64,000 bases of DNA from NCBI RefSeq assembly GCF_041886205.1, contig NZ_CP169029.1. One strand, 5' to 3'. Position 1 is the first letter of the stretch. The number at the start of each line of letters is the position of its first letter. The position numbers were made by a program, and so were the translations under genes. Below the pieces are notes generated by a model. The model searched no databases and was not told where the DNA came from. It saw only the letters and a list, made by a program, of their open reading frames with translations. The stretch is from Escherichia coli. Its GTDB lineage: Bacteria; Pseudomonadota; Gammaproteobacteria; Enterobacterales; Enterobacteriaceae. Shown here piece after piece: positions 54,108 to 57,226 of the stretch.

Positions 54108-56086
<1,979 letters not shown>

Positions 56087-56088
<2 letters not shown>

Positions 56089-57226
56089 GTCAGAGCCCCT
56101 CGATCTCAATCAGTTAGCGCAAAAAATTAAACAGTGGGGGCTGGAACTGGGCTTTCAGCAGGTAGGTATTACCGATACCGATCTCAGCGAGTCCGAGCCC
56201 AAACTGCAAGCATGGCTGGACAAACAATACCACGGCGAAATGGACTGGATGGCACGTCACGGTATGCTGCGCGCTCGCCCTCATGAGTTATTGCCCGGTA
56301 CGCTGCGCGTGATCAGCGTGCGGATGAATTACCTTCCTGCTAACGCCGCATTTGCCAGCACGCTGAAAAACCCCAAACTCGGCTATGTTAGCCGTTATGC
56401 GCTGGGCCGTGACTATCACAAACTTCTGCGCAACCGACTCAAAAAGCTGGGCGAGATGATTCAGCAACATTGTGTTTCGCTGAATTTTAGACCGTTTGTC
56501 GATTCTGCGCCTATTCTCGAGTGCCCGTTAGCTGAAAAAGCTGGGCTCGGCTGGACAGGTAAGCACTCACTTATCCTCAATCGCGAGGCCGGTTCGTTCT
56601 TCTTTTTAGGCGAATTGCTGGTCGATATTCCGCTGCCCGTGGATCAACCAGTCGAGGAAGGATGCGGTAAATGCGTGGCCTGTATGACTATTTGCCCGAC
56701 CGGTGCCATCGTCGAGCCATATACCGTCGATGCTCGCCGCTGTATCTCTTATCTCACCATCGAACTTGAAGGGGCGATCCCGGAAGAGTTGCGACCGTTA
56801 ATGGGAAACCGTATTTACGGTTGCGATGACTGCCAGCTTATCTGCCCGTGGAATCGCTATTCACAACTCACCACAGAAGAGGATTTCAGCCCGCGTAAGC
56901 CGCTACACGCACCGGAACTCATTGAGTTATTCGCCTGGAGCGAAGAGAAGTTTTTAAAAGTCACGGAAGGATCGGCGATTCGTCGTATTGGTCACCTGCG
57001 TTGGCTGCGTAATATCGCCGTAGCATTAGGCAATGCCCCTTGGGATGAAACGATTTTGACAGCGCTGGAAAGTCGTAAAGGTGAGCACCCACTTCTCGAT
57101 GAGCACATAGCGTGGGCGATTGCGCAGCAAATAGAGAGACGAAATGCGTGCATAGTCGAAGTGCAATTGCCGAAAAAACAGCGTCTGGTTCGGGTGATTG
57201 AAAAAGGGTTACCGCGTGACGCCTGA
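56087..57226 (+). CDS. queG: epoxyqueuosine reductase QueG
   Basis: ORF 55979..57226, start at [30 protein letters not shown] (379 aa); 4Fe-4S Cys motifs CGKCVACMTICP and CDDCQLICP. Confidence 0.9.

What the first reader, a model, noticed from the sequence alone, without database searches (positions are those of the whole stretch)
56080..56095. Divergent nnr and queG with overlapping start codons
Using the starts that give K-12-length proteins (nnr 515 aa, queG 379 aa), the nnr ATG (reverse complement of 56086-56088) and the queG ATG (56087-56089) share the central AT of a CATG tetranucleotide. Each gene's promoter and ribosome-binding site must then lie inside the other gene's 5' coding sequence, an unusually tight head-to-head arrangement that could couple their expression.
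Basis: inference. Interest (0 to 1): 0.25.

Follow-up and report, generated by a model that had tools for sequence, protein, structure and literature searches.

The report
Head-to-head nnr/queG genes sharing CATG
Two E. coli genes that point away from each other start on the same four bases, so each gene's on-switch sits inside the other gene; this is real and evolutionarily old, but it is already annotated and already listed in published catalogues of overlapping transcripts.

Summary
CATG at window 56086-56089 holds the nnr ATG (minus strand, 515 aa) and the queG ATG (plus strand, 379 aa). K-12 and four RefSeq E. coli annotations show the same 2-bp overlap.

Both starts look genuine. The in-frame CATG junction is kept in 29 of 33 other Enterobacterales species sampled and in two more distant gammaproteobacterial MAGs. 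nnr Met1 always has a 4-nt Shine-Dalgarno core. The alternative Met6 is a start codon in only about half of the species.

An extended -10 promoter for queG (TGTGGTATACT, 56045-56055) lies in nnr codons 12-15. The nnr ribosome-binding site (GAGGGG) lies in queG codons 4-5. An nnr promoter (-10 TAAAAT, 56484-56489) lies in queG codons 133-135 and uses a rare AGA codon.

Published 5' ends (about 56063 and 56476) face each other across 413 bp, where RNase III-dependent double-stranded RNA has been captured. ExcludonFinder (2025) lists queG-nnr among 16 divergent E. coli excludons.

No direct start-site data could be retrieved, and reciprocal regulation has not been tested. Verdict: already known, modest interest. 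The embedded, deeply conserved promoter is a new detail.

The parts
56086..56089 (.). CATG tetranucleotide holding both start codons (nnr ATG = reverse complement of 56086-56088; queG ATG = 56087-56089)
   Evidence: Sequence. Annotated identically in K-12 and four RefSeq genomes. Conserved in frame in 29 of 33 Enterobacterales species loci.
54541..56088 (-). nnr coding sequence (515 aa plus stop), bifunctional NAD(P)HX epimerase/dehydratase and first gene of the nnr-tsaE-amiB-mutL... transcription unit
   Evidence: ORF and translation; annotation; homology to solved Nnr/YjeF structures, E 4.8e-59 to TM0922.
56087..57226 (+). queG coding sequence (379 aa plus stop), epoxyqueuosine reductase
   Evidence: ORF and translation; annotation; 598 relatives confirmed in the genome scan.
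56045..56055 (+). Inferred queG promoter of the extended -10 class, TGTGGTATACT (TRTGn + TATACT), lying in nnr codons 12-15 (Ser-Ile-Pro-His = AGT ATA CCA CAC)
   Evidence: Conserved as TRTGnTAnnnT in 44 of 48 loci with adjacent nnr and in 12 of 31 loci without it. Third positions of nnr codons 12-14 are invariant in 30 sequences. Pro to Ala/Ser/Thr changes keep the TG. The published 5' end lies 7-8 nt downstream. The segment is removed in the published delta-PqueG allele.
56063..56086 (+). queG 5' leader (about 24 nt), antisense to nnr codons 1-8; contains an out-of-frame ATG at 56077-56079
   Evidence: 5' end 4392114 (U00096.2) equals window 56063 by my coordinate conversion, +/-1 nt. The leader plus early coding region is less structured than shuffles, z = +2.08.
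56096..56101 (-). nnr Shine-Dalgarno sequence GAGGGG (GAGG core, 9 nt before the ATG), encoded opposite queG codons Pro4-Leu5 (CCC CTC)
   Evidence: A 4-nt SD core lies 4-9 nt upstream of nnr Met1 in all 31 sequences. queG codons 4-10 have the lowest third-position entropy of 355 windows in the gene, 0.66 against a mean of 1.30.
56484..56489 (-). Inferred -10 hexamer TAAAAT of an nnr promoter, opposite queG codons Asn133-Phe134-Arg135 (AAT TTT AGA); the rare AGA codon supplies the first T
   Evidence: Lies 7-8 nt upstream of the published plus-strand 5' end 4391701 = window 56476. GGTCTAAAATTCA is invariant from Escherichia to Mangrovibacter (L003-L020) and lost where Arg is CGN.
56063..56476 (.). 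Region transcribed on both strands from face-to-face promoters (413 bp); includes the nnr 5' leader 56089-56476 (-)
   Evidence: Conway overlap 4391701-4392114 (413 nt); Lybecker dsRNA MS-212 4391717-4392100; p19 clusters E-284 and S-361 4391754-4392109 = window 56068-56423.
56071..56073 (-). Alternative in-frame nnr ATG (Met6), the only plausible rival start
   Evidence: Has only a 3-nt GGA as SD. It is ATG/GTG/TTG in 15 of 31 sequences and a non-start codon in the rest.

Best explanation
nnr and queG form a true head-to-head gene pair with no intergenic DNA, and their ATG codons interlock in one CATG. With no spacer, the expression signals are written into the partner's coding sequence. (1) queG is transcribed from an extended -10 sigma-70-type promoter, TGTGGTATACT, that doubles as nnr codons 12-15. 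This gives a leader of about 24 nt that is poorly structured and almost lacks an SD. (2) nnr is translated from Met1 using a GAGG(GG) Shine-Dalgarno sequence that doubles as queG codons Pro4-Leu5. (3) nnr is transcribed at least partly from a promoter about 390 nt inside queG, whose -10 TAAAAT depends on a rare AGA arginine codon of queG. Read-through from beyond queG may add to this. The two promoters therefore face each other, and 413 bp are transcribed in both directions. The complementary 5' regions form double-stranded RNA that RNase III cuts. The expected consequence is mutual negative coupling, as in an excludon, through polymerase collision, occlusion of the queG promoter, and pairing that covers both ribosome-binding sites. 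Shown here or in cited data: the geometry, conservation of the starts, nucleotide-level constraint on the embedded elements, the two published 5' ends, and dsRNA in the overlap. Inferred: promoter identity and sigma factor, use of Met1 in vivo, and any reciprocal regulatory effect.
For: Geometry and annotation. Conservation of the in-frame CATG across Enterobacterales and in two outgroup MAGs. Only conserved nnr start, with SD. The strongest synonymous-site constraint of each whole gene falls at the junction: queG codons 4-10 rank 1 of 355 windows, nnr codons 8-14 rank 1 of 469, and codons 12-14 have zero third-position variation. The TRTGn extended -10 is conserved about 40-55 nt upstream of queG in 44 of 48 nnr-adjacent loci. 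It is kept upstream of queG in Brenneria, Pectobacterium, Photorhabdus, Xenorhabdus, Photobacterium, Pseudoalteromonas and Rheinheimera, where nnr is displaced or absent. My chance expectation is about 1.3% per locus, assuming equal base frequencies. The AGA-dependent TAAAAT is invariant within Enterobacteriaceae. [quoted passage not shown] An independent laboratory's delta-PqueG allele removes window 56027-56057, which contains the element.
Against: I could not retrieve any direct translation-start evidence for either protein. The TetRP, TRAINSPOTTER and INRI-seq supplements had no informative entry, and the Ribo-RET tables are not held. The two 5' ends come second-hand, from Conway's table as copied into another paper's supplement; Conway's own supplement is not held. 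The simple two-hexamer promoter scan found nothing in 55600-56600, so both promoters lack a recognisable -35 and the nnr one is weak by consensus. Conservation of ATGACGGACCAT (nnr codons 1-4) could owe as much to the queG leader as to nnr translation. Overlapping 5' ends occur in 35% of divergent E. coli operons, so dsRNA here need not mean regulation. No experiment shows reciprocal expression changes. One MAG (L018) has the CATG out of frame and would start nnr at Met6.
Confidence: 0.78

Rival explanations
1. Start-codon misannotation: Nnr really begins at Met6 (ATG at 56071-56073). The genes would then not overlap and would be separated by 13 nt, and the CATG coincidence would have no meaning for translation.
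For: Met6 exists in E. coli with a minimal GGA upstream. The soil MAG L018 has a 1-nt indel that leaves only the Met6-equivalent start in frame. Divergent overlaps in annotations are often 5' over-extensions; every one longer than 60 bp examined by Palleja et al. was. Residues 1-18 lie outside the part of Nnr that aligns to solved structures.
Against: Position 6 is a non-start codon (CTG, ATT, GAA, AAG and others) in roughly half of the genera, whereas Met1 plus a 4-nt SD core is present in 31 of 31. The nnr SD sits in the most synonymously constrained window of queG. Even if this rival were true, 13 nt cannot hold a promoter, so the embedded-signal architecture would stand.
Confidence: 0.1
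2. The arrangement is real but functionally neutral. It is a frozen by-product of genome compaction, and the antisense overlap and dsRNA are tolerated noise cleared by RNase III, with no meaningful coupling of nnr and queG expression.
For: 136 of 388 divergent E. coli operons have overlapping 5' ends. No experiment on this pair shows reciprocity. nnr and queG have no obvious opposed functions. nnr::frt-kan and delta-PqueG strains behaved like wild type in the datA assays reported. Once signals are embedded in coding sequence, purifying selection alone would preserve the layout.
Against: The tight or overlapping junction persists across several gammaproteobacterial orders. The pair is among the strongest dsRNA producers in stationary phase. 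It is detected as an excludon in most RNA-seq samples. None of this proves regulation.
Confidence: 0.4
3. The conserved TGTGGTA(T/A)ACT is not a promoter. It reflects selection on the Nnr N-terminal peptide Ser-(Ile/Leu)-Pro-(His/Gln), or on the nnr mRNA.
For: The peptide motif is widely conserved. A degenerate form (SLPDSVF, VLPCVVF) survives in Pectobacterium and Brenneria Nnr after separation from queG. In Oceanisphaera and Aeromonas the element stays inside nnr although queG is about 100 nt further away.
Against: Synonymous positions are invariant: AGT, never TCN; ATA or TTA; CCA. The amino-acid changes Pro to Ala/Ser/Thr keep the TG dinucleotide. Separated nnr copies lose those synonymous choices, while queG keeps a better -10 (TAAAAT) upstream. 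The element occurs upstream of queG in 12 of 31 loci without adjacent nnr. The published queG 5' end lies 7-8 nt downstream.
Confidence: 0.07

Closest known systems
Divergent excludon (overlapping 5' regions of neighbouring, oppositely oriented genes; defined in Listeria, catalogued in E. coli and S. aureus by ExcludonFinder, NAR 2025)
   Same: Oppositely oriented neighbours whose transcripts overlap at their 5' ends, with dsRNA in the overlap that depends on RNase III. queG-nnr is explicitly listed among the 16 divergent E. coli excludons.
   Different: Mutually exclusive expression and opposed functions are part of the excludon concept but have not been shown for this pair. Here the coding sequences themselves abut and overlap, whereas the mean intergenic distance of E. 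coli excludon pairs is 95 nt.
Overlapping divergent operons of E. coli K-12 (Conway et al. 2014) and their dsRNAs (Lybecker et al. 2014; Huang et al. 2020)
   Same: This pair is a member of those published lists: Conway overlap 413 nt, Lybecker MS-212, p19 clusters E-284 and S-361.
   Different: The overlap is longer than the average of 168 nt. It is also special in having zero intergenic DNA, so both promoters are intragenic.
Extended -10 (TRTGn) sigma-70 promoters
   Same: TGTG-G-TATACT matches TRTGn directly abutting a -10 hexamer with A at position 2 and T at position 6. There is no recognisable -35, and the start lies 7-8 nt downstream. The consensus is from established knowledge.
   Different: The promoter is entirely inside a coding sequence on the opposite strand, and its activity has not been measured.
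Short same-strand gene overlaps (ATGA, TAATG) that give translational coupling
   Same: An overlap of a few nucleotides involving start codons, conserved across species.
   Different: Those are on one mRNA and couple ribosomes. Here the two start codons are on different strands and different mRNAs, so any coupling must be transcriptional or antisense. Divergent overlaps are only about 1% of well-characterised overlaps: 457 of 42,055 in 338 genomes.
Noncontiguous operon (genes co-transcribed across an oppositely oriented gene)
   Same: ExcludonFinder lists yjeV-queG-nnr as one of three such units in E. coli.
   Different: I did not verify that a continuous transcript runs from yjeV/glyVXY through the antisense of queG into nnr.

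Membership tests
Divergent (head-to-head) overlapping gene pair | Two protein-coding genes on opposite strands whose 5' ends share nucleotides | tested here: met
   CATG at 56086-56089, with a 2-bp CDS overlap in the sequence and in five annotations.
Divergent (head-to-head) overlapping gene pair | Both start codons are the ones really used, not 5' over-extensions | tested here: inconclusive
   The comparative evidence is strong: Met1 plus SD in 31 of 31 sequences, Met6 not conserved, and queG with no alternative start. No experimental start-site data could be retrieved.
Divergent excludon | Neighbouring genes in opposite orientation with overlapping transcripts | tested here: met
   Met by published data that I read: a 413-nt overlap between 5' ends 4391701(+) and 4392114(-), and listing in the E. 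coli excludome. Conserved -10 elements lie at the right distance from both ends.
Divergent excludon | dsRNA formed in the overlap and processed by RNase III | tested here: met
   p19-captured ~22-nt duplexes, which the authors describe as RNase III decay intermediates, and an anti-dsRNA pull-down interval both fall inside the overlap. This rests on literature data and was not recomputed from reads.
Divergent excludon | Expression of one partner represses the other (mutually exclusive expression) | not testable with these tools
   No expression data for promoter mutants of this pair are available. The delta-PqueG and nnr::kan strains were assayed only for datA functions.
Extended -10 sigma-70 promoter | TRTGn motif immediately upstream of a -10 hexamer with A at position 2 and T at position 6 | tested here: met
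   TGTGGTATACT at 56045-56055. The pattern TRTGnTAnnnT is conserved in 44 of 48 nnr-adjacent loci and 12 of 31 others.
Extended -10 sigma-70 promoter | Transcription starts 6-8 nt downstream of the hexamer | tested here: met
   The hexamer ends at 56055. The published 5' end converts to 56063 (+/-1), with a G at 56062.
Extended -10 sigma-70 promoter | Promoter activity depends on the TG and the -10 bases | not testable with these tools
   Needs reporter fusions or in vitro transcription.

The most novel reading that the evidence does not exclude
The junction is an ancient, selectively maintained dual-coding module. The queG extended -10 promoter has dictated the Nnr N-terminal peptide (Ser-Leu/Ile-Pro-His/Gln) across at least four gammaproteobacterial orders. 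A rare AGA codon in queG is retained in Enterobacteriaceae solely as part of the nnr promoter. The resulting face-to-face promoters would then act as a real reciprocal switch between queuosine maturation (queG) and the nnr-tsaE-amiB-mutL-miaA-hfq transcription unit, strongest in stationary phase, when the dsRNA is about ten-fold more abundant.
Probability: 0.25. Interest if true: 0.45.

Novelty: already known. Interest (0 to 1): 0.22.

Why it matters
This is a clean natural example of regulatory signals written into the coding sequence of a neighbouring gene. A promoter fixes three codons of nnr. A ribosome-binding site fixes two codons of queG. A rare arginine codon in queG is kept as part of a -10 box.

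The example has three practical uses. It shows that a short divergent overlap can be genuine, although the class is usually suspected of misannotation. It warns that 'synonymous' recoding or knock-outs of either gene will hit the other. For example, a published nnr::kan marker and a delta-PqueG allele each necessarily affect both genes. It also offers a compact model for testing whether excludon-type antisense overlap regulates anything in E. coli.

It does not change current understanding, because the pair is already annotated this way and already appears in genome-wide lists.

Tried and rejected
1. The two-hexamer promoter and terminator scan of 55600-56600 found nothing. It requires a -35 match, so it misses extended -10 promoters, and I did not count it as evidence against.

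2. Experimental translation starts. The TetRP supplement, the TRAINSPOTTER N-terminomics supplement and the INRI-seq supplement (only an irrelevant PNA off-target line for nnr) had nothing useful. The Ribo-RET preprint has no held supplement, and the journal version is not held.

3. Independent TSS tables. Conway 2014's supplement is not held. The Kim 2012 and Cappable-seq supplements are truncated before 4.39 Mb.

4. An Rfam scan of 55700-56700 gave only a sub-threshold chance hit (ilvB-OMG, 17 bits against a gathering score of 95.9) away from the junction. There is no known cis-regulatory RNA here.

5. An upstream TTG at 56107-56109 (the 522-aa ORF) was rejected as the nnr start. It directly follows a stop codon, has no SD, and would place the conserved GAGGGG inside the coding region.

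6. The upstream GTG at 55979 (415-aa ORF) was rejected for queG. It lies outside the mapped transcript, and the extension is just the antisense of nnr.

7. I considered surveying the whole K-12 annotation for other divergent start overlaps. I dropped this as too costly and used published frequencies instead.

Full report
**1. Observation**

The window reads ...TATGGTCCGTCATGTCAGAGCCCC... with CATG at 56086-56089. Reading leftwards on the minus strand from the CAT at 56086-56088 gives a 515-aa protein, [22 protein letters not shown]..., which is Nnr. Reading rightwards from the ATG at 56087-56089 gives a 379-aa protein, [18 protein letters not shown]..., which is QueG.

The mechanical ORFs are longer: 522 aa from a TTG and 415 aa from a GTG. 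Those extensions have no support (see section 7).

Four PGAP-annotated genomes spanning 96.7-99.9% identity show the same 2-bp overlap. The region is present in 5,425 of 5,426 complete E. coli genomes.

**2. Are the starts real?**

I fetched 80 loci encoding QueG relatives from one genome per species and located nnr in them by tblastn.

- In 29 of 33 non-E. coli Enterobacterales loci, nnr residue 1 maps exactly one base to the right of queG residue 1. That is the same CATG interlock. The genera include Escherichia albertii, Citrobacter, Enterobacter, Kluyvera, Cedecea, Pantoea, Mixta, Serratia, Yersinia, Rahnella, Budvicia, Acerihabitans and Edwardsiella.
- The exceptions are Brenneria and Pectobacterium (nnr displaced by 147 nt and about 1.2 kb), Photorhabdus (no nnr nearby), and one soil MAG with a 1-nt indel.
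- Outside the order, the pair is still head-to-head and very tight. CATG occurs again in a Tolumonas MAG and another MAG. Gaps are 1-nt overlaps or 11-22 nt in several Alteromonadales and Vibrionales, and 50-100 nt in a few others.

All 31 Enterobacterales-type sequences have an ATG at nnr codon 1, preceded by a 4-nt Shine-Dalgarno core (mostly GAGG, 9 nt upstream). In the MAG L018 that ATG is out of frame with the gene body. The only rival start, codon 6, is ATG/GTG/TTG in 15 sequences and a non-start codon in the others. About 13 sequences have no alternative start at all in the first 12 codons.

queG has no other in-frame start codon between the mapped 5' end and codon 52.

I found no direct ribosome-profiling or N-terminal peptide evidence. 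Use of Met1 in vivo therefore remains an inference, though a strong one.

**3. Where are the signals?**

*queG promoter.* The junction alignment shows an invariant block, TGTGGTATACT or TGTGGTAAACT, at window 56045-56055. This matches the extended -10 promoter consensus, TRTGn followed by a -10 hexamer (established knowledge).

- It is the reverse complement of nnr codons 12-15 (AGT ATA CCA CAC = Ser-Ile-Pro-His).
- In a codon alignment of 30 species, the third positions of codons 12, 13 and 14 never vary. The window nnr codons 8-14 has the lowest third-position entropy of 469 windows in the gene: 0.60 against a mean of 1.45.
- Where the amino acid does change (Pro to Ala, Ser or Thr in Edwardsiella, Aeromonas and Oceanisphaera), the change keeps the CA that gives TG on the other strand.
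- The pattern TRTGnTAnnnT lies within 110 nt upstream of queG in 44 of 48 loci with adjacent nnr. It is also there in 12 of 31 loci where nnr is displaced or absent. From the pattern's information content I expect about 1.3% per locus by chance.
- In Brenneria and Pectobacterium, queG keeps the element, improved to TAAAAT, next to a relic of the old nnr 5' end. The relocated nnr keeps only a degenerate peptide with altered synonymous sites.

The element therefore belongs to queG, not to the Nnr protein.

*nnr ribosome-binding site.* The SD GAGGGG is the reverse complement of queG codons Pro4-Leu5 (CCC CTC, 56096-56101). queG codons 4-10 are the most synonymously constrained of 355 windows in that gene: 0.66 against a mean of 1.30.

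*nnr promoter.* A -10-like TAAAAT lies on the minus strand at 56489-56484, opposite queG Asn133-Phe134-Arg135 (AAT TTT AGA). The rare AGA codon provides its first T. GGTCTAAAATTCA is invariant from Escherichia to Mangrovibacter. It is lost in Erwiniaceae, Yersiniaceae, Budviciaceae and Hafniaceae, where Arg is CGN. This promoter therefore looks specific to the family Enterobacteriaceae.

**4. Agreement with published experiments**

Huang et al. 2020 (PMC7373196) list 'yjeS, yjeF' among the top 20 protein-coding dsRNA clusters captured by p19 in stationary phase. The entry is S-361, 4,391,754-4,392,109, classed as a 5' overlap.

Their supplement adds three items:
- the exponential-phase cluster, 4391759-4392107;
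- the Lybecker anti-dsRNA interval MS-212, 4391717-4392100;
- Conway's divergent-operon overlap, 4391701-4392114 (413 nt), with the plus-strand unit starting at P 4391701.

Reads were mapped to U00096.2. A duplex read beginning CAUGACGGACC fixes the conversion as window = 4448177 - x. This gives:
- a queG 5' end at window 56063 (a G lies at 56062), 7-8 nt after TATACT;
- an nnr 5' end at window 56476 (an A), 7-8 nt after TAAAAT;
- all dsRNA intervals nested between the two ends.

The promoters thus face each other across 413 bp. The nnr leader, about 388 nt, is antisense to the queG ribosome-binding site and its first 130 codons or so. The 24-nt queG leader is antisense to nnr codons 1-8.

ExcludonFinder (PMC12288877) lists queG-nnr among only 16 divergent excludons present in at least half of 58 MG1655 RNA-seq samples. 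It also lists yjeV-queG-nnr as a noncontiguous operon.

A replication study (PMC10950094) built a delta-PqueG strain. Its primers delete window 56027-56057, the segment that carries the element. queG expression in that strain is not reported in the text I read.

**5. Mechanism and its limits**

What is established:
- the interlocked, conserved starts;
- nucleotide-level selection on three embedded elements;
- face-to-face 5' ends;
- dsRNA in the overlap.

What is inferred: that the arrangement couples expression. Possible routes are polymerase collision, occlusion of the queG promoter by nnr transcription, and antisense pairing that masks both start regions and triggers RNase III cleavage.

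Overlapping 5' ends occur in 136 of 388 divergent E. coli operons. The overlap is therefore not in itself evidence of regulation, and I give the 'real but neutral' reading about 0.4.

The queG leader has almost no SD (GGU at most). It is less structured than shuffled controls, z = +2.08, which fits initiation that depends on an open start region.

**6. Comparison and novelty**

Divergent overlaps are rare. They make up 457 of 42,055 well-characterised overlaps in 338 genomes, and every one longer than 60 bp examined was a misannotation. They are strongly under-represented relative to other orientations. A conserved 2-bp divergent overlap is therefore uncommon but is a recognised category.

This particular pair is annotated this way in K-12. 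It already appears in four genome-wide data sets (Conway 2014, Lybecker 2014, Huang 2020, ExcludonFinder 2025). I therefore rate the finding as already known.

Three points appear not to be spelled out in the papers I could read:
- the extended -10 promoter inside nnr codons 12-15, conserved across Enterobacterales, Aeromonadales, Alteromonadales and Vibrionales;
- the AGA-dependent nnr -10 element;
- the fact that the junction is the most synonymously constrained part of both genes.

These are refinements, not a new kind of system.

**7. Rejected alternatives**

- The TTG at 56107-56109 directly follows a stop codon, has no SD, and would bury the conserved GAGGGG in coding sequence.
- The GTG at 55979 lies outside the mapped queG transcript.
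- No Rfam family matches the junction.
- The simple promoter scan found nothing, but it cannot see promoters that lack a -35 element.

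Noticed in passing
window 54541-54569: nnr and the downstream tsaE (54108-54569, minus strand) overlap co-directionally by 29 nt. The same overlap is annotated in K-12 and in strain 504239.
   Followed up: no
window 57209-57262 (-): The 17-aa yjeV ORF (MRFYFYSQAVDESGVTR) overlaps the 3' end of queG convergently by 18 nt. ExcludonFinder lists yjeV-queG as a convergent excludon and yjeV-queG-nnr as a noncontiguous operon. nnr might therefore also be reached by transcription running antisense through all of queG.
   Followed up: partly
window 57227-57794: Three tRNA-Gly(GCC) genes lie on the minus strand (57496-57571, 57607-57682, 57719-57794). According to PMC10950094, the DnaA-inactivating locus datA lies between them and the queG 3' end, and read-through from the tRNA operon crosses it.
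   Followed up: partly
window 56077-56079 (+): An out-of-frame ATG lies 10 nt upstream of the queG ATG, inside the 24-nt leader. It opens a 17-codon ORF ending at TAA 56128-56130. It is the reverse complement of nnr His4 (CAT). It is present in most genera but is CTG in Pantoea and TTG in Rahnella. Whether it is translated or affects queG initiation is unknown.
   Followed up: partly
L028 2440-2503 and L031 2440-2503: In Brenneria and Pectobacterium, nnr has been moved away from queG. queG keeps the extended -10 element (now with TAAAAT). In Brenneria it also keeps a relic of the old nnr 5' end (CATGGCCAACCGGTAA = M-A-N-R-stop). The displaced nnr keeps a degenerate copy of the peptide motif, which suggests a local duplication accompanied the separation.
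   Followed up: partly
L018 2480-2503: A soil MAG labelled 'Proteobacteria bacterium CTSoil_132' has a 1-nt indel that puts the CATG ATG out of frame with nnr, leaving only the Met6-equivalent ATG in frame. This is either an assembly error or a natural case of nnr starting at Met6.
   Followed up: no
L049 about 2425-2500: In an Oceanisphaera MAG, the nnr-queG spacer (about 77 nt) contains three tandem repeats of about 19 nt with the core TTTATGAnCAGCCAG. A related MAG (L063) has the CATG overlap instead, so the spacer may have arisen by repeat expansion.
   Followed up: no
window 56484-56492 (-): The inferred nnr promoter has C at position -13 (TCTAAAAT). The dsRNA cluster is about ten-fold more abundant in stationary than in exponential phase in Huang et al. 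This hints at RpoS dependence, which I did not test.
   Followed up: no
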